Source: Thermoleophilia bacterium (GTDB lineage: Bacteria > Actinomycetota > Thermoleophilia > UBA2241). From it: DNA of 64,000 nucleotides. Of the stretch, positions 28,298 through 33,112 are shown piece by piece. The notes beneath the pieces are model-generated. The model had not been told where the DNA came from, made no database searches, and saw nothing but the letters and a program-made list of their open reading frames with translations. A program made the translations under genes and the position numbers. The stretch spans positions 2,761-66,760 of the forward strand of contig DASRZL010000098.1 of NCBI GenBank assembly GCA_035686425.1. The letters run 5' to 3'. Every line of letters begins with the position of its first letter. The first letter of the stretch is position 1.

Positions 28298-28435
28298 TGC
28301 CGCCCCCTTCGTCGATGACGTTCTGGAGGACGCACCGGCTGACGCTGGTCACTCGCCGGCACTCGCTACGCGGATCCAGGGAGTCTACGACGGACGATTC
28401 GTCCCGGCGATGGCCCGGGGGGCCCGTGGCGGATA

Positions 28436-28477
28436 CAAAAGAGGCGCCCGGTGGCCGGAAGGGCCGCCGGGCGCCTG
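28436..28477 (-). terminator. Intrinsic terminator downstream of the FmdB-like gene
   Basis: AGGCGCCCGG/CCGGGCGCCT stem followed by UUUUG on the minus strand. Confidence 0.7.
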
Positions 28478-28502
28478 CATGAGCCGTCGCCCACTCGGGC
28501 GA

Positions 28503-28549
28503 TGAGGCTGAGCTGTGCGGCGCGACCGCGCCGCCGTGTTTCAGCCTCA
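28503..28549 (-). promoter_or_regulatory. Bacterial SECIS-like hairpin starting at the UGA codon
   Basis: UGA + 12 nt + GCGGCGC-[GGUC]-GCGCCGC. The lower stem UGAGGCUGA pairs with UCAGCCUCA. Confidence 0.7.
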
Positions 28550-28747
28550 GCCGAAGCCGCTGCTGCTCGGGACGGCGCAACCGCCGCCCGAACTGCCGCC
28601 GATGTTCTTGAGGAAGCTCGTGAACTTCTGCCGGACGTCGACGCTGTCGCAGTCCGGGCAGGTCTTGTCCTCGTCTTTGAGGAAGCCCTGCCGGAAGACT
28701 TCGAACTCGAGGCCGCACGCGTCGCAGATCAGGTCGTAGGACGCCAT
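28541..28747 (-). CDS. FmdB-family zinc-ribbon protein, probable selenoprotein (Sec67; ends GFG-U-G)
   Basis: CDAC...CPDC ribbon and GGAGG SD. The in-frame TGA at 28547-28549 is followed by GGC TGA and a SECIS-like hairpin. Without recoding the CDS ends at 28547. Confidence 0.75.
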
Positions 28748-28773: not shown

Positions 28774-28789
28774 ATACCCTAGGGGGTAT
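28774..28789. promoter_or_regulatory. CsoR/CstR/RcnR-family operator overlapping the FmdB-gene -10
   Basis: ATACCCTAGGGGGTAT (ATACC-N6-GGTAT with C/G tracts); minus-strand TATAAT at 28788-28793. Confidence 0.7.
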
Positions 28790-28894
28790 TATACGCGAAG
28801 CTTGCGGGGGCGCAAACATCGGTCCCGGGGTAAGCTCTGCCGCGTGAGGGGACGTGAGGCGCACCGCCGGCGTCCGGAACAGAAAGGGAGATCC

Positions 28895-29380
28895 ATGAAG
28901 TCCAGGACGCTCGCGCTCGCGACGCTCGTCGCGGCTGTTCTCATCGCCGCCGTCGCGCTCTCCGCCTGCGGCTCGTCATCGGATACGCCGACCACCTCGG
29001 GCGACGTCGAGGTCATCGCGCCCAGCGCCTTCAGCGTGTCCGACTACGCCGGCAAGCCGCTGGTGATCAACTTCTTCGGCTCCTGGTGCGGGCCGTGCAA
29101 CGCGGAGGCTCCGGATCTCGCCACCTTCGCCACGGACAATCCCGATGCGCAGATCGTGGGCATCGCCGTGGATGACAGCGAAGGCGACGCCGTGGGTTTC
29201 ATGAACGAGTACGGACTCTCGTTCACGCTGGTGGTCGACGACCAGAGCCTCGCCGGCGAGTACGGCATCACCGGTGTGCCGACGACGATCTTCTTCGACG
29301 CCCAAGGCCAAGAGACCGACCGCCTCATCGGCGCCTCTACGCTGGCGCAGTTCGACGCAGGCTTCGCGAAGGCCCAGTGA
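28895..29380 (+). CDS. TlpA/ResA-like thiol-disulfide oxidoreductase lipoprotein
   Basis: Lipobox LSAC, active site WCGPC, cis-Pro GVPT. Confidence 0.88.
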   Translation: MKSRTLALATLVAAVLIAAVALSACGSSSDTPTTSGDVEVIAPSAFSVSDYAGKPLVINFFGSWCGPCNAEAPDLATFATDNPDAQIVGIAVDDSEGDAVGFMNEYGLSFTLVVDDQSLAGEYGITGVPTTIFFDAQGQETDRLIGASTLAQFDAGFAKAQ

Positions 29381-29419
29381 GGCCGCCGGCGCGGCAGTGA
29401 CGGCCGGCGTGGTCCTCGC

Positions 29420-30139
29420 ATGACCGCGGTCGAGATCACCTCTCTCAGCCTGACGGCGATCGGCCTCGCCTTCGCCGCCGGGCTGCTCTCGTTCGTCTCT
29501 CCCTGCGTCCTGCCGCTCCTGCCGGTCTACCTCTCGTTCATCTCCGGCGTGGGCGTCGAGGACCTCGGCCGGGAGCATCGCCGCCTGCTCTGGACGTCGC
29601 TGCTCTTCGTCGCCGGGTTCACGGCCGTGTTCGTGCTCATGGGAGCCGGCGCCGGCGGCGTCGGCCGGCTCCTGATCAGATACCGGCAGGAGCTGATGAT
29701 CGCCGCCGGCGCCTTCATCGTCGTGAGTGGCCTCCTGGTCTCCGGCGTGATCAAGCTGCCGGAGCCGGTGCTCAAGGTGGCGCCGAAGCGCGCCGGCGCC
29801 GCCGGCGCCTTCTTCACCGGCGCCGCCCTCGCCATCGGCTGGACGCCGTGCGTCGGCTACGTGCTCGGCGCGATCCTCTCCATGGCCGCCACCAGTCAGA
29901 GCGTGCTCACGGGCTCACTTCTTCTTCTGGTCTACTCGATCGGGCTCGGCGTGCCCTTCGTGCTCGCCGCGCTCGCCTTCGACTGGGTGAGCGCCCGGCT
30001 CGGCTGGGTCAAGCGCCACTATCGCACCATCCAGGTGGCCGCCGGCGCGCTCCTCGTCGTGTTCGGCGTGCTCATGATGCTGGGCGTCCTCGAACAGCTC
30101 GGCCGTTGGCTGCCGGCCTTCAGTCCAGGTGGGCTGTAA
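29420..30139 (+). CDS. ccdA: Cytochrome c biogenesis / DsbD-type membrane electron transporter CcdA
   Basis: SFVSPCVLPL and GWTPCVG motifs; 6 TM helices. Confidence 0.92.
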   Translation: MTAVEITSLSLTAIGLAFAAGLLSFVSPCVLPLLPVYLSFISGVGVEDLGREHRRLLWTSLLFVAGFTAVFVLMGAGAGGVGRLLIRYRQELMIAAGAFIVVSGLLVSGVIKLPEPVLKVAPKRAGAAGAFFTGAALAIGWTPCVGYVLGAILSMAATSQSVLTGSLLLLVYSIGLGVPFVLAALAFDWVSARLGWVKRHYRTIQVAAGALLVVFGVLMMLGVLEQLGRWLPAFSPGGL

Positions 30140-30217: not shown

Positions 30218-33112
30218 ATGACCGCCCGCCATCGCATCCCCGAGCTCTCGCCGGAGGGCCGCGCCGCCGGGCAGGCGCTCCGGTGCGCGGTGGCCGGCAA
30301 GGTCTCGGCGTCGCCGCTCAGTCGCTGGCTCTACTCCACCGACGCCTCGGGATACCGCGTCGTGCCTGAGGTCGTCGTCGCGGCCGGCTCGCCGGACGAT
30401 CTGGCGGTCGTGGCGACGGTCGCGGCAGAGACCGGCCTGCCGGTCGTGGCCCGCGGCGCCGCGTCGAGCCTCGCCGGGCAGGCGATCGGCCCCGGCATCG
30501 TCGTCGACTGCTTCGGCCTGGACCGCATCCTCGAGATCGACGCCGGCGCTCGCCACGCTCGAGTCCAGCCCGGCGTCGTCCAGGCCGCGCTCAACGCCGC
30601 CGCGGCGCCGTATGGCCTCGAGTTCGGACCCGACACCTCGACCGTCGACCAGGCGACCATCGGCGGCATGGTCGGAAACAACTCCTCCGGCTCGCGCTCC
30701 ATCGTCTACGGCGAGACCAAGGACAAGGTGCTGCGCGTGGCCGGCGTGCTCGCCGGCGGCGAGGACATCGAGTTCGGGGCCTGTGTCGGGGACGACCTCA
30801 CGAGCGGCATTCGCGGGGCGGCAGGGGGAAGGCTCGCGGCGGAGCTGGCGCGGGTGCGCGAGCGGTACCGCGAGCCCATCGCGACCGGTTACCCGGAGAC
30901 GATCCGGTGCACCTCCGGCTACAACCTCCGGGAGCTGCTCGCGCCCAAGCCCGAGGTGGGCCGGCTGCTCGCCGGCTCGGAGGGTACGCTGGCCCTGTTC
31001 ACCGAGCTCGACGTGCTGCTCGACGCGCGCCCGGCCGCACGAGTCGGCGCCGCCTTCACCTTCGCGACCTTGCGCGAGGCACTGGAGGCCAACGTCGCCA
31101 TCCTCGATACAGGGCCATCCGCGACCGAGTTCCTGGACCTCGCGCCGCTGCGTCGCGCTCCCAACCTGGCCACGTACCGGAACATGGCCGCGATGGTGGG
31201 CGGCGGCGACGCGGCGCTGCTCACCGTCGAGTATCAGGGGAGCGAGGAGGAGGCCCACGCCGGCCTCGCGCGCCTGCGTGCCCTCGCCGGCGCCCTTGGC
31301 GCGACCCAGTCCCTCTGGCTCGAGCAGCCGGAGGAGCTCGCGGAAGCCGCGGCCCTGCGTCGCGCCGCCCTGCCGCTGCTCATGGGTGCGCCGGGCGCGG
31401 AGCGCCCGGCGTCGTTCGTCGAAGACGCGGCCGTGGCGCCAGAGCGGCTCGCCGACTTCGTCGACGACTTCCAGCGGGTGGTCGCGTCCCATGGCGCCCG
31501 CGCCAGCTACACCGGGCACGCCTCCGCCGGTTGCCTGCACATCCGGCCGTTGCTCGACCTCAAGACCGCGGCAGGCGTGGCCCGCATGGACGCGCTGGCC
31601 GGCGAGGTCGGCCGTCTCGTGGCCGACTACCACGGCGCGATCTCCGGCGAGCACGGCTGCGGGCGCTCGCGCAGCTGGTTCCTGCCACGGCTTCTCGGGC
31701 CCGGGCTGTACGAGGCCATGGTCGCCGTCAAGGACGCCTTCGACCCGCATCGCCTGCTGAATCCCGGGGTCGTGGTGGACGGCCCCCCGGTCACTGAGGC
31801 GCTGCGCTTCGGCGCCGACTACCGCGGCGACCGGGCGTGGGCGCCGCGGCTCTCCTACGCCGCCGAGGGCGGTTTCGACCTCGCCATCGAGAAGTGCTTC
31901 GGCGCCGGCCTCTGCAAGAAGCTCTCAGGCACGATGTGCCCGCCCGGCTCTGCGACGCGCGATGAGGCGCGCACCACCCGGGCGCGCGCCAACGCGTTGC
32001 AGGGGGTCGTCTGTGGAGCCGTGCCGTTGGCGGCGATCGGCGAGGACGAGTTCCGCGAAGTGCTCGGCACCTGCGTCGCCTGCAAGGCGTGCAAGACCGA
32101 GTGCCCCGCAGGCGTCGACATGGCCGCTCTCAAGGTCGAGTGGCTCGCGGAACTGCGCTCCCGCGAAGGCGTCCCGCCGCTCGCGCGCGGCATCGGCGAC
32201 TTCCGCCGGCTCGCGGCGCTCGCGGCGCCGGTCGCGCCGCTGGTCAACGTCCTTGGCCGCACCCGAGCGGCGCGGCTCGTGACCAACCGCGTCGGCGTCG
32301 CCCGCGAACGGCCGCTGCCTACGTTCGCGAGCTGGCCGCTCACGCGCCGGTGGGCCGCCCGGCCGGCGCCGACAGCCGTCGCGGCTTCGGGGTCCGCCAA
32401 GACCGCAACGCTCTTCGTCGATTGCTTCGTCCAGTATCAGGAGCCGGGCGTGGGCGAGGCACTGGCGCGGCTCCTCGCCGCCGCGGGCGTGCGCCTCAGC
32501 CTCACGGACGTTGGCTGCTGCGGCCGTACCGCGCTGTCGACGGGGCAGATCGAGCGGGCGCGCGCCGCTGCGCGGCGCGCTCTCGACGGGCTGCACGTTC
32601 GCGTCCGGGACGGCGCCGAGGTCCTCTTCATCGAGCCGTCGTGCCTGTCCATGGTGCGCGACGACTGGGCGCGGCTGCTCCCCGGGGACCCGCGTGTCGC
32701 CGAGGTCGCCACGGCGGCGCGTCCGGCGCTTGCTCTCGTCGCCGACCTGGCCGCTGAAGGCCGCCTGCGCTTCCGTGCCGGCGGCCGCGCGCTCCTGCAC
32801 ACTCACTGCCACGAGAAGGCGCTGGGCTTCGCCGCGGCGACGCAGGACGCCCTGGCCGCCGTTCCCGGCCTCGAGGTCGAGGATCCAGACGCCGGGTGCT
32901 GCGGCATGTCCGGCGTGTTCGGTTACGAGGCCGAACACTACGCGCTCAGCGTGGCTATGGGTGAGCGAGTGCTGCTGCCGGCGGTGCGGGCGGCGCGGCA
33001 GGACACGGCCGTGCTCGCGACCGGTACGTCGTGCCGGTCGCAGGTGCGCGATCTCAGTGGCCGCGCCGCTCTCCACCCGCTCGAGTTCCTCGCCGGTCGC
33101 CTCCAGACCTGA
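30218..33112 (+). CDS. FAD-binding and Fe-S-binding oxidoreductase (GlcD+GlcF / Dld-II-type fusion)
   Basis: GGMVGNNSSG, GEHG, CFGAGLC, CVACKACKTECP, and two CCG domains (GCCG). Confidence 0.88.
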   Translation: MTARHRIPELSPEGRAAGQALRCAVAGKVSASPLSRWLYSTDASGYRVVPEVVVAAGSPDDLAVVATVAAETGLPVVARGAASSLAGQAIGPGIVVDCFGLDRILEIDAGARHARVQPGVVQAALNAAAAPYGLEFGPDTSTVDQATIGGMVGNNSSGSRSIVYGETKDKVLRVAGVLAGGEDIEFGACVGDDLTSGIRGAAGGRLAAELARVRERYREPIATGYPETIRCTSGYNLRELLAPKPEVGRLLAGSEGTLALFTELDVLLDARPAARVGAAFTFATLREALEANVAILDTGPSATEFLDLAPLRRAPNLATYRNMAAMVGGGDAALLTVEYQGSEEEAHAGLARLRALAGALGATQSLWLEQPEELAEAAALRRAALPLLMGAPGAERPASFVEDAAVAPERLADFVDDFQRVVASHGARASYTGHASAGCLHIRPLLDLKTAAGVARMDALAGEVGRLVADYHGAISGEHGCGRSRSWFLPRLLGPGLYEAMVAVKDAFDPHRLLNPGVVVDGPPVTEALRFGADYRGDRAWAPRLSYAAEGGFDLAIEKCFGAGLCKKLSGTMCPPGSATRDEARTTRARANALQGVVCGAVPLAAIGEDEFREVLGTCVACKACKTECPAGVDMAALKVEWLAELRSREGVPPLARGIGDFRRLAALAAPVAPLVNVLGRTRAARLVTNRVGVARERPLPTFASWPLTRRWAARPAPTAVAASGSAKTATLFVDCFVQYQEPGVGEALARLLAAAGVRLSLTDVGCCGRTALSTGQIERARAAARRALDGLHVRVRDGAEVLFIEPSCLSMVRDDWARLLPGDPRVAEVATAARPALALVADLAAEGRLRFRAGGRALLHTHCHEKALGFAAATQDALAAVPGLEVEDPDAGCCGMSGVFGYEAEHYALSVAMGERVLLPAVRAARQDTAVLATGTSCRSQVRDLSGRAALHPLEFLAGRLQT

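What the first reader, a model, noticed from the sequence alone, without database searches (positions are those of the whole stretch)
28503..28747. Hidden selenoprotein: FmdB zinc ribbon ending Cys57...GFG-Sec-Gly with a SECIS-like hairpin
The gene ends GGC TTC GGC TGA GGC TGA. Twelve nt after the first UGA begins a perfect 7-bp stem with a GGUC loop (19 nt from UGA to loop), close to the E. coli fdhF SECIS geometry and loop sequence. The second UGA is too close to the loop and serves as the stop. A separate U-tailed terminator exists downstream, so this hairpin is not needed for termination. Recoding gives a penultimate Sec on a flexible tail, like the GCUG tail of mammalian thioredoxin reductase, with Cys57 as possible partner. 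FmdB-like Sec proteins have, as I recall, been listed among bacterial selenoproteins, but their function is unknown and ORF callers truncate them.
Basis: partly seen in the sequence, partly recalled or inferred. Interest (0 to 1): 0.8.

Follow-up and report, generated by a model that had tools for sequence, protein, structure and literature searches.

The report
Uncatalogued zinc-ribbon selenoprotein with C-terminal selenocysteine
This small zinc-ribbon gene almost certainly does not stop at its first UGA: it reads it as selenocysteine and ends Sec-Gly, and the same hidden ending occurs in relatives from several bacterial lineages, a selenoprotein group I could not find in current catalogues.

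Summary
The minus-strand gene (ATG 28747) ends GGC TTC GGC TGA GGC TGA. Twelve nt after the first UGA sits a perfect 7-bp hairpin, GCGGCGC-GGUC-GCGCCGC, and a separate U-tailed terminator lies further downstream.

Comparative evidence strongly supports Sec decoding.
- In 102 related loci (90 distinct proteins) the first stop is always TGA.
- It is followed by one Gly codon (GGC, GGG or GGT), rarely one more codon, and then an in-frame stop.
- The 18-nt hairpin is almost invariant and starts 11-12 nt after UGA1.
- Nine more distant lineages (GC 36-74%, including Syntrophus) keep UGA, then 1-2 codons, then a stop (UGA, UAG or UAA).
- They also keep a hairpin 9-14 nt downstream. Its stem sequence differs, but a G-U is kept in the loop.
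- All 7 stem pairs covary.

The geometry and GGUC loop match E. coli fdhF and PrxU SECIS elements.

The protein is an FmdB-type zinc ribbon (TIGR02605) with a disordered Cys57...Sec67-Gly68 tail. Published FmdB selenoproteins carry Sec inside the CxxC motif instead. No NCBIfam selenoprotein model matches.

The gene sits next to thioredoxin-fold genes and under a CsoR-type operator. This suggests a thioredoxin-recycled Cys/Sec arm for copper or persulfide stress (inferred).

The parts
28541..28747 (-). Coding sequence of the 68-residue selenoprotein: 66 sense codons, Sec67, Gly68 and the UGA2 stop
   Evidence: TIGR02605 scores 37.2 bits against a cutoff of 31.3. GC3 is 0.91.
28547..28549 (-). 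UGA1, read as selenocysteine (Sec67)
   Evidence: The first stop is TGA in 102 of 102 close loci and in all 9 distant lineages. This includes four low-GC lineages whose second stop is TAA or TAG.
28544..28546 (-). Gly68 codon (GGC)
   Evidence: Only synonymous variants occur in the close clade: GGC 92, GGG 2, GGT 1. GGA occurs in L333 and GCG (Ala) in distant lineages.
28541..28543 (-). UGA2, the true stop, 6 nt upstream of the hairpin
   Evidence: An in-frame stop lies 1-2 codons after UGA1 in every lineage: UGA, UAG or UAA.
28517..28534 (-). SECIS apical hairpin GCGGCGC-GGUC-GCGCCGC, the predicted SelB-binding element
   Evidence: It folds. It is almost invariant in 97 loci while its flanks vary. 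7 of 7 pairs covary across lineages, and the loop G-U is invariant.
28503..28511 (-). 3' arm of a lower stem that pairs with UGAGGCUGA (28549-28541)
   Evidence: It is present in some relatives only, so it is probably not essential.
28577..28579 (-). Cys57 codon (TGC), the candidate partner of Sec67
   Evidence: Nearly invariant in a 54-sequence alignment. Every distant lineage also has a Cys 4-10 residues before Sec, or 2 residues after it.
28649..28726 (-). Zinc ribbon: CxxC (Cys8, Cys11) and CxxC (Cys30, Cys33)
   Evidence: Invariant columns. AF2 gives pLDDT 74-86 for residues 1-48.
28434..28476 (-). Intrinsic terminator: G+C-rich hairpin followed by UCUUUUGU
   Evidence: Most relatives have a separate terminator downstream of the SECIS.
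28487..28502 (-). Small second hairpin UCGCCC-GAGU-GGGCGA between the SECIS and the terminator
   Evidence: A GUCGCC...GGCGAC hairpin recurs in many relatives, with changes on both arms. Its function is unknown.
28774..28789 (.). Palindrome ATACCCCCTAGGGTAT, a CsoR-type operator candidate that overlaps the -10 element
   Evidence: It is the only match in the window, against 0.02 expected. ATACCC-N4-GGGTAT is present in 80 of 100 loci, with TAC-N8-GTA variants in 10 more. Compare the S. lividans copZA operators TACCCCCTAGGGGTA.
28788..28816 (-). Promoter candidate: TTTGCG/TTGCGC (-35), 16-nt spacer, TATAAT (-10)
   Evidence: Read and conserved in relatives. The consensus scan did not call it.
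28895..30139 (+). Divergent tlpA-like thioredoxin-fold gene (WCGPC) and ccdA/DsbD_TM gene; a FAD/Fe-S oxidase follows at 30218-33112
   Evidence: Pfam hits. The synteny is conserved in nearly all close loci, with TlpA at 43-94% identity.

Best explanation
The gene encodes a 68-residue cytoplasmic selenoprotein. It has an FmdB-type zinc ribbon (residues 1-48) followed by a disordered Gly/Ser-rich tail that ends Cys57-x9-Sec67-Gly68.

Recoding step (inferred from comparative data, high confidence):
- When the ribosome holds UGA1 in the A site, the GGUC hairpin that starts 12 nt downstream sits at the mRNA entrance.
- There it presents SelB-GTP-Sec-tRNASec, so Sec is inserted.
- One Gly codon later, UGA2 lies only 6 nt from the hairpin. 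The hairpin must by then be melted or inside the ribosome, so release factor 2 terminates.
- Apart from those two codons, the SECIS lies entirely in the 3' UTR. A separate terminator ends the transcript.
- Gene callers stop at UGA1 and therefore annotate a 66-residue protein.

Function (inferred from gene context, about 0.4): the Cys/Sec pair on the flexible tail is the working site. It would be either a selenenylsulfide that is recycled by the thioredoxin-fold proteins encoded next to family members, or a soft-ligand site. It would be expressed when a CsoR-family repressor leaves the operator over the -10 element, that is, under Cu(I) or persulfide stress.
For: 1. Close clade.
- 102 of 102 first stops are TGA. 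The extension is G in 91 of 97, otherwise GH, GR, AH, AG, GA or GP. The second stop is in frame in all.
- The Gly68 codon varies only synonymously.
- The hairpin starts 11 or 12 nt after UGA1 in 90 of 97 loci. L055 has U-G-V-stop.

2. Distant lineages L334, L335, L336, L017, L390, L420, L423, L425, L427 and L428.
- All keep UGA, 1-2 codons and a stop. The stop is UAA or UAG in the low-GC ones.
- Each has a different perfect stem 9-14 nt downstream, with GU in the loop.
- 14 of 14 lineages pass a SECIS-like test that only 3.4-3.7% of random TGAs pass.

3. Covariation.
- 97.4% of cells are paired, 7 of 7 pairs show double changes, and 0 of 500 shuffles reach the observed values.
- Slid controls give 26-61% paired.

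4. Comparators.
- E. coli fdhF has 18 nt between UGA and GGUC (sequence verified). Here the distance is 18-19 nt.
- PrxU genes have UGA, 12 nt, then NCGGC-GGUC-GCCGN.

5. The hairpin is not the terminator. In L334 it lies inside the next gene.

6. One lineage is labelled Syntrophus aciditrophicus, a species with 19 known selenoproteins (PMC1794560).

7. Function context.
- Thioredoxin-fold genes are adjacent in at least six lineages. CcdA, CcmH and a Pyr_redox_2/Trx_3 gene also recur.
- A CsoR-family gene is adjacent in L425/L426 and L015/L016.
- The operator resembles the S. lividans copZA sites.
- The tail is disordered in AF2.
Against: - selA, selB, selC and selD were not shown in this genome.
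- No Cys-for-Sec homologue exists in the close clade. Only distant tails such as ...GFGCGCGAGS (P0190) offer a Cys counterpart.
- Within the close clade the hairpin is invariant, so covariation rests on about 10 distinct hairpins, which were picked by a hairpin finder.
- All sequences come from MAGs or metagenomes. There is no expression, mass-spectrometry or 75Se evidence.
- Rfam has no matching SECIS model.
- The function is inferred from context only. The operator spacing is TAC-N8-GTA, whereas characterised CsoR sites have N9.
Confidence: 0.86

Rival explanations
1. UGA1 is an ordinary stop and the protein ends ...GFG. The conserved hairpin would be a 3'-UTR element for RNA stability, termination or regulation, and the following GGC UGA would be conserved only as part of that RNA structure.
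For: - Gene callers and public annotations end the protein at ...FG.
- In the window, UGAGGCUGA pairs with a downstream arm.
- TGA is the commonest stop codon in high-GC genomes.
- The Sec machinery was not demonstrated.
Against: - The first stop is TGA in every lineage, including GC 36-42% genomes where the second stop is TAA or TAG.
- An in-frame second stop lies within 1-2 codons in 14 independent lineages, and the Gly68 codon shows only synonymous changes.
- The lower stem is not conserved.
- A separate terminator exists.
- The hairpin position, loop and geometry equal those of fdhF and PrxU SECIS elements.
Confidence: 0.04
2. The locus gives two products. Sec insertion at a penultimate position is inefficient, so a 66-residue truncated protein is the main product. 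The 68-residue Sec form would be made only when selenium is plentiful, and the ratio would itself be regulatory.
For: - Termination at UGA1 removes only two residues, so the truncated form would fold normally.
- From my own knowledge of UGA recoding, bacterial Sec insertion competes with RF2, and truncated thioredoxin reductase is a known by-product.
Against: - Selection clearly maintains the SECIS, Gly68 and the second stop, so the Sec form is the selected product.
- Nothing in the data measures decoding efficiency.
Confidence: 0.25
3. The tail is chiefly a soft-metal site rather than a redox arm. On this view the protein is a Cu(I) (or As/Hg) chaperone or buffer that uses Cys57 and Sec67 as ligands and is induced through CsoR.
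For: - The operator is nearly identical to the S. lividans copZA CsoR sites.
- CsoR-family genes lie next to L425/L426 and to the Cys/His-tailed relatives L015/L016, whose tail is HAHHGGCGCGGH.
- L132 ends ACHHG-U-G.
- An ArsR-type HTH and ArsP_2 genes are neighbours in other lineages.
Against: - The most recurrent neighbours are thioredoxin-fold proteins, CcdA and CcmH.
- CsoR-family members also sense persulfide, and L425 carries rhodanese and DUF302.
- The operator spacing is N8, not N9.
- No copA or copZ gene is adjacent.
Confidence: 0.3
4. The gene encodes a ribosomally made peptide precursor (selenobacteriocin-like), and its Gly/Ser/Cys/Sec tail is modified after translation.
For: - As I recall it, the TIGR02605 family description notes that FmdB tails resemble bacteriocin precursor tails.
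- A selenobacteriocin family with an SGUG motif is catalogued.
Against: - No maturation, export or immunity genes appear in any of the neighbourhoods read.
- The conserved part is the N-terminal zinc ribbon, not a leader peptide.
- There is no hit to TIGR04081.
Confidence: 0.03

Closest known systems
FmdB-family selenoproteins predicted in the GOS metagenome (Zhang and Gladyshev 2008, PMC2398784; listed in the reviews PMC9312934 and PMC13188914)
   Same: Same protein family (TIGR02605 / COG2331, a small dual-CxxC zinc ribbon). Both are predicted to be decoded through a bacterial SECIS.
   Different: In the GOS sequences Sec replaces a Cys of the zinc-ribbon CxxC (CxxU or UxxU), and only 2 sequences are known. 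Here all four ribbon Cys are Cys codons, and Sec is the penultimate or antepenultimate residue of the tail. More than 100 sequences from many lineages are involved.
Small bacterial selenoproteins with Sec at the extreme C-terminus: UXX-star family 2 (NF041211, GxGU), KCU-star (NF033934), Cys-Cys-COOH SaoC (NF040734)
   Same: Sec lies 1-3 residues from the C-terminus, so the SECIS is outside the ORF. These proteins are routinely truncated by gene callers. The local motif G-x-G-U is shared with UXX-star family 2.
   Different: Six family members gave no hit to any of these models. The fold here is an FmdB zinc ribbon.
E. coli fdhF SECIS, the reference bacterial SECIS
   Same: Both have a GGUC apical loop. 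UGA to the loop is 18 nt in fdhF and 18-19 nt here. In this locus the UGA can also pair in a lower stem.
   Different: The stem here is a perfect 7-bp G+C helix without the bulged U of fdhF (from memory). It lies in the 3' UTR, not in coding sequence.
PrxU (selenocysteine peroxiredoxin) SECIS in high-GC bacteria
   Same: PrxU has UGA, 12 nt, then a 5-6 bp G+C stem with a GGUC loop (AGUU in lower-GC genomes). The same loop alternation, GGUC versus AGUU, is seen in this family.
   Different: It is a different protein family, and the SECIS is embedded in coding sequence.
Mammalian thioredoxin reductase C-terminal Gly-Cys-Sec-Gly
   Same: A penultimate Sec followed by Gly on a flexible C-terminal arm, with a Cys partner.
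   Different: In TrxR the Cys is adjacent to Sec. Here it is 10 residues upstream (4-10 residues upstream, or 2 residues after Sec, in relatives). There is no flavoprotein body, and the SECIS is of the bacterial type.
CsoR operators of Streptomyces lividans copZA (PMC3902906)
   Same: ATACCCCCTAGGGTAT here compares with TACCCCCTAGGGGTA there. Both have a TAC/GTA dyad flanking a C/G tract, and the site overlaps the promoter.
   Different: The dyad spacing is N8 rather than N9. No CsoR gene was found within the window, and binding is untested.

Membership tests
Bacterial SECIS-decoded selenoprotein gene | An in-frame UGA conserved across homologues | tested here: met
   102 of 102 close loci and all distant lineages have TGA at this position, including low-GC genomes.
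Bacterial SECIS-decoded selenoprotein gene | A stem-loop just 3' of the UGA with conserved G/U in the apical loop, at fdhF-like distance | tested here: met
   The hairpin starts 9-14 nt after UGA1 in 14 of 14 lineages, against 3.4-3.7% of random TGAs. 7 of 7 pairs covary and the loop GU is invariant. fdhF and PrxU comparators agree.
Bacterial SECIS-decoded selenoprotein gene | Evidence of coding downstream of the UGA | tested here: met
   The Gly68 codon changes only synonymously, and an in-frame stop lies within 1-2 codons in every lineage.
Bacterial SECIS-decoded selenoprotein gene | Cys-containing homologues aligned with Sec | tested here: inconclusive
   There are none in the close clade. 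Distant FmdB tails such as ...GFGCGCGAGS (P0190) and ...GGCGCGGH are plausible Cys counterparts, but the low-complexity tails cannot be aligned with confidence.
Bacterial SECIS-decoded selenoprotein gene | selA, selB, selC (tRNA-Sec) and selD in the same genome | not testable with these tools
None of these genes lies in the window. Earlier notes report a PrxU selenoprotein in the same genome, which I did not verify.
Bacterial SECIS-decoded selenoprotein gene | Selenium shown in the protein | not testable with these tools
   This needs 75Se labelling or mass spectrometry.
FmdB family zinc ribbon (TIGR02605 / PF09723) | Two CxxC motifs about 17-18 residues apart, starting near the initiator Met, with a model score above the cutoff | tested here: met
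   TIGR02605 scores 37.2 bits against 31.3. PF09723 is precomputed on homologues. The Cys are at positions 8, 11, 30 and 33.
FmdB family zinc ribbon (TIGR02605 / PF09723) | A low-complexity C-terminal tail outside the model | tested here: met
   The tail is GGSSGGGCAVPSSSGFG, with AF2 pLDDT below 50 for residues 50-68.
GOS-type FmdB selenoprotein (Sec in CxxU/UxxU) | Sec replaces a Cys of the zinc-ribbon CxxC | tested here: not met
   All four ribbon positions are Cys in all homologues. Sec is at residue 67.
NF041197 dual CXXC motif small (seleno)protein; NF041211 UXX-star family 2 | A match to the curated model | tested here: not met
   Six diverse members gave no hit at E up to 1 or 10.
CsoR-regulated gene | A TAC-N9-GTA G-tract pseudopalindrome over the promoter, and a CsoR protein that binds it | tested here: inconclusive
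   The palindrome is conserved and overlaps the -10 element, but its spacing is N8. No CsoR gene lies in the window, and binding was not tested.

The most novel reading that the evidence does not exclude
FmdB-type zinc-ribbon proteins with a C-terminal Cys...Sec arm may form a widespread, uncatalogued selenoprotein family. It spans Thermoleophilia, a Syntrophus-labelled MAG and several unidentified lineages of 36-74% GC.

On this reading the family works with co-encoded thioredoxins and under CsoR- or ArsR-type sensors, as a selenium-based module for handling Cu(I) or sulfane-sulfur stress. The Sec position would then mark the tail Cys motifs as the active site of the whole FmdB family, whose function is still unknown.
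Probability: 0.35. Interest if true: 0.75.

Novelty: new member of a known kind. Interest (0 to 1): 0.6.

Why it matters
- **Annotation.** Every public annotation I saw truncates these proteins at ...FG and so removes the residue most likely to do the chemistry. A simple rule would repair hundreds of gene models and enlarge known selenoproteomes, notably in uncultured soil and sediment Thermoleophilia. The rule is: FmdB ribbon, then TGA, 1-2 codons, a stop, and a hairpin 9-14 nt after the TGA.
- **Function of the FmdB family.** TIGR02605 is large and has no established function. Sec normally sits at the reactive site, so its placement next to a conserved Cys points to the C-terminal tail as the working part. 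The recurrent thioredoxin and CsoR/ArsR contexts give concrete, testable partners.
- **SECIS biology.** The family offers a compact natural SECIS that lies outside the ORF, with a short defined extension. That is convenient for studying or engineering C-terminal Sec insertion.

Tried and rejected
- **tRNA-Sec.** Scans of the window and of 22 family loci found none.
- **Rfam.** There was nothing at gathering threshold and only noise at E up to 10, so no usable bacterial SECIS model exists there.
- **Exact search for the 18-nt hairpin in genome contigs.** I hoped to find other selenoprotein genes that use it. Most of the 120 rows were chance hits in high-GC genomes. Only more FmdB-type genes carried it behind a TGA.
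- **Test for a second selenoprotein (PrxU) in the same MAGs.**
  - A high-GC-specific pattern gave 78 loci, none from the assemblies that carry the FmdB gene.
  - The result is inconclusive, because the pattern fixes codon choices.
- **Scan of the window for other TGA-plus-hairpin genes.** None was convincing.
- **TlpA-like neighbours as possible UGC-type selenoproteins.** All have Cys.
- **Reading both UGAs as Sec.** Rejected, because the frame then runs on for more than 30 codons of unconserved sequence.
- **The hairpin as the terminator.** Rejected: it has no U tract, a separate terminator exists, and in L334 the hairpin lies inside the next gene.
- **NF041197 and UXX-star membership.** Rejected, with no model hit.
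- **Motif search for sel genes in all fetched loci.** It found only one tRNA-Sec, beside a PrxU gene in an Anaerolineaceae locus.
Full report
**1. The observation**

On the minus strand an ORF starts at ATG 28747, preceded by GGAGG. It reads MASYDLICDACGLEFEVFRQGFLKDEDKTCPDCDSVDVRQKFTSFLKNIGGSSGGGCAVPSSSGFG, followed by TGA GGC TGA.

- After the first TGA come 12 nt (GGCUGAAACACG) and then GCGGCGC-GGUC-GCGCCGC, a perfect 7-bp hairpin at 28534-28517.
- RNA folding recovers this hairpin and a lower stem in which UGAGGCUGA pairs with UCAGCCUCA (28511-28503).
- Folding also finds a small second hairpin and a classical terminator with a U tract at about 28476-28434.
- The whole 3' region folds far better than shuffles (z = -5.8).

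**2. The close clade**

A protein search returned about 100 homologues of 53-85% identity. Nearly all are annotated as 64-68 residues long and end in ...S(P/G/S)FG. Conservation that runs right up to an annotated stop is the usual sign of a truncated selenoprotein.

Reading the DNA of genome and metagenome loci confirmed this.

- In 102 loci encoding 90 distinct proteins, the first stop is TGA in all 102.
- Of the 97 loci with enough downstream sequence:
  - 91 continue with a single Gly codon and a second in-frame stop;
  - the rest add one more codon (GH, GR, AH, AG, GA, GP; L055 has GV).
- The Gly68 codon varies only synonymously (GGC 92, GGG 2, GGT 1).
- The 18-nt hairpin begins 11 or 12 nt after UGA1 in 90 of 97 loci.
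- The hairpin is almost invariant, while the spacer and everything after it differ freely among 79 distinct 3' regions.
- The few changes in the hairpin are mostly C-to-U changes that keep a G-U pair (L339, L386, L399, L412).
- Most loci have their own G+C hairpin with a U-run terminator further downstream, so the conserved hairpin is not the terminator.

**3. Distant lineages and covariation**

A library-wide search showed that many 50%-identity cluster representatives of FmdB-type proteins end exactly in GFG, GFS, SFG or similar. I fetched DNA for ten of them (read).

| Locus | GC | C-terminal reading | Stem / loop |
|---|---|---|---|
| L334 | - | GFG-U-A-H-UGA | CCGGCGG / GUU |
| L335 | - | GFS-U-A-G-UAG | CGGGCCC / GUG |
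| L336 | - | GFG-U-G-A-UGA | CGGGCGC / GUC |
| L390 | - | GFG-U-G-P-UGA | GUGAUGC / GGUC |
| L017 (Syntrophus label) | - | CAPS-U-G-H-UGA | UCAUGACC / GUG |
| L420 | 73% | GFG-U-A-I-UGA | CCGGACG / GUC |
| L423 | 36% | GFS-U-G-V-UAA | GGAGGC / AGUU |
| L425 | 42% | GFG-U-G-UAG | GGCUC / AGGUC |
| L427 | 55% | CAPSG-U-R-I-UAA | GGGGGCC / AGGUCC |
| L428 | 40% | GFG-U-G-C-UAA | UGGCC / GUG |

- Two further Thermoleophilia zinc-ribbon paralogues use the identical majority hairpin: L056 (...TSYG-U-G-R) and L132 (...ACHHG-U-G).
- The first stop is therefore always UGA, even where the genome prefers UAA or UAG for the second stop.
- A hairpin with G-U in its loop always starts 9-14 nt later.
- 14 of 14 lineages meet a SECIS-like criterion that 3.4-3.7% of all TGAs meet, in both high-GC and low-GC control sequence.
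- On an alignment of 11 distinct hairpins:
  - 97.4% of cells pair;
  - all 7 pairs show changes on both sides;
  - no shuffle out of 500 reaches the observed values;
  - sliding the partner by 1-3 columns drops pairing to 26-61%;
  - the loop G and U are the only invariant columns.
- Caveat: the hairpins were found by a hairpin finder, so pairing itself is partly built in. The position, the loop GU and the background rate are independent of that.

**4. Comparison with accepted SECIS elements**

- It has 18 nt between UGA and a GGUC loop. Here the distance is 19 nt, or 18 nt in relatives with an 11-nt spacer.
- PrxU genes fetched by an active-site pattern carry UGA, 12 nt, then NCGGC-GGUC-GCCGN in high-GC genomes. 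The loop is AGUU in lower-GC genomes.
- The same GGUC/AGUU alternation is seen in this family.
- Rfam offers no usable bacterial SECIS model.

**5. The protein**

- It matches only the FmdB zinc-ribbon family (TIGR02605, 37.2 bits against a cutoff of 31.3; PF09723). This also holds for five distant members.
- AlphaFold models a three-stranded ribbon with confidence for residues 1-48. The tail, residues 50-68, has pLDDT below 50.
- Cys57 is nearly invariant.
- Every distant lineage keeps a Cys 4-10 residues before Sec. In L428 the Cys lies two residues after Sec instead.
- No member of the close clade has Cys in place of Sec.
- Possible Cys counterparts are distant FmdB tails such as ...GFGCGCGAGS (P0190) and the ...GGCGCGGH / HAHHGGCGCGGH tails of an MPTYD-type group.

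**6. Context**

- The promoter region is conserved: TTTGCG, 16-17 nt, then TATAAT. The -10 element overlaps the palindrome ATACCCCCTAGGGTAT (28774-28789).
  - This is the only such site in the window (0.02 expected).
  - ATACCC-N4-GGGTAT is present in 80 of 100 loci, with close variants in 10 more.
  - It resembles the S. lividans CsoR operators TACCCCCTAGGGGTA and the consensus ATATACCCCTNAGGGGTATAT (PMC3902906). The dyad spacing is N8 rather than N9.
- In essentially all close loci the gene is transcribed divergently from three genes:
  - a TlpA-like thioredoxin-fold gene (WCxxC);
  - ccdA;
  - a FAD/Fe-S oxidase.
- The M6 peptidase gene downstream is variable.
- Neighbourhoods in other lineages:
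  - a thioredoxin gene directly upstream, often overlapping (L334, L335, L423, L427, and L015/L016);
  - CcmH and a Pyr_redox_2/Thioredoxin_3 protein (the P0100 contig);
  - DUF302, rhodanese, FmdB, a CsoR-family repressor and a ferredoxin in a row (L425/L426);
  - an ArsR-type HTH (L423);
  - ArsP_2 permease genes (L428).

**7. What is known**

- Zhang and Gladyshev (2008, PMC2398784) listed two GOS reads of the FmdB family as selenoproteins with a CxxU motif.
- The 2022 and 2026 reviews list them as U/CxxU and UxxU.
- The 2026 table of 119 prokaryotic selenoprotein families contains no zinc ribbon with a C-terminal Sec.
- The families nearest in concept are UXX-star family 2, KCU-star, SaoC and the dual-CXXC small selenoprotein NF041197. 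None matches any member tested.
- Full-text searches for the family identifiers, and for zinc-ribbon selenoproteins, found nothing further.
- S. aciditrophicus is a recognised Sec user with 19 listed selenoproteins, none of them FmdB-type (PMC1794560).
- I therefore file this as a new, apparently uncatalogued subfamily of a known kind. It is decoded by the canonical mechanism.

**8. Limits**

- The window holds no sel gene or tRNA.
- Earlier notes of this scan report a PrxU selenoprotein with a GGUC-loop SECIS elsewhere in the same genome.
  - I could not re-examine that locus.
  - My attempt to find PrxU in the same MAGs as the FmdB gene was inconclusive.
- All data come from MAGs and metagenomes. 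Nothing shows expression or selenium content.

**9. Mechanism**

Shown by comparison:
- a UGA under selection;
- a coding extension of 1-2 codons;
- a structurally conserved hairpin at SelB distance.

Inferred:
- SelB bound to the GGUC loop delivers Sec-tRNASec to UGA1.
- UGA2 (or UAA/UAG) is too close to the hairpin to be recoded, so it terminates.
- Without selenium, a 66-residue truncated protein would be made.

For function I commit, at about 0.4, to a thioredoxin-recycled Cys57/Sec67 arm on a zinc-ribbon docking module, induced when a CsoR-family repressor is released. The main alternative, at about 0.3, is a Cu(I) or soft-metal binding tail. The two are not exclusive.

Noticed in passing
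window 28774-28789 (and upstream of the gene in L001-L014, L337-L419): The palindrome ATACCCCCTAGGGTAT overlaps the TATAAT box. It is conserved in about 90 of 100 related loci and closely resembles the Streptomyces lividans CsoR operators, but with TAC-N8-GTA spacing instead of N9. It lies in the divergent intergenic region, so it could also control the tlpA-ccdA operon.
   Followed up: partly
L056 (CAVXDR010000003.1) and L132 (CAVPCT010000005.1): Two other, more divergent zinc-ribbon proteins of Thermoleophilia/Actinomycetes MAGs end ...DCGAPRTSYG-UGA-GGG-CGC-UGA and ...ACHHG-UGA-GGG-UGA. Both use exactly the same GCGGCGC-GGUC-GCGCCGC hairpin. This hairpin therefore looks like the lineage's preferred SelB site, shared by several paralogous selenoprotein genes.
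   Followed up: partly
L425/L426 (ERZ1742238; DRDW01000141.1): A low-GC family member sits in the run DUF302, rhodanese, FmdB(Sec), CsoR-family repressor (PF02583), ferredoxin. This looks like a persulfide or sulfur-transfer (CstR-type) operon containing a selenoprotein.
   Followed up: no
L428/L429: This member ends GFG-U-G-C-UAA and has no Cys upstream in its tail. The partner Cys appears to have moved to two residues after Sec. ArsP_2 permease genes lie next to it.
   Followed up: no
window 28487-28502, and the same position in L001-L004, L009, L012-L014, L085, L343 and others: A second small hairpin (GUCGCC-loop-GGCGAC) between the SECIS and the terminator recurs in many relatives, with changes on both arms (for example GUUGCC/GGCAAC in L002). 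Its function is unknown.
   Followed up: no
L006 (JBLMXT010000002.1) and L015 (CAZIQQ010000093.1): L006 is labelled Deltaproteobacteria but is almost identical to the Thermoleophilia locus L008. L015 is labelled Bifidobacterium but is almost identical to the Thermoleophilia locus L016. These are probably binning or labelling errors in the public MAGs.
   Followed up: no
L008 and L013 (both CAVQLY01, MFD02979.bin.3.261): One MAG carries two copies of the whole fmdB(Sec)/tlpA/ccdA locus on two contigs, with proteins that differ. This is either a true duplication or two strains binned together.
   Followed up: no
L085 (CAVUBA010000025.1): The TlpA, CcdA and M6 peptidase genes are broken into several frames here. 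These look like indel errors of a long-read MAG rather than pseudogenes.
   Followed up: no
L015/L016: A Cys/His-tailed FmdB relative (tail HAHHGGCGCGGH, TAG stop, no hairpin) lies between a thioredoxin gene and a CsoR-family gene. It is a likely sulfur-only counterpart of the Sec-tailed proteins.
   Followed up: partly
L340, L341 (JGI Ga0307377_10009435, Ga0307380_10100848): Two metagenome contigs encode a protein 100% identical to the window's, with the same 3' region. The window's organism, or a very close strain, is therefore present in those samples.
   Followed up: no
Their SECIS loop switches between GGUC and AGUU with genome GC content. L201 has a tRNA-Sec gene beside prxU.
   Followed up: partly
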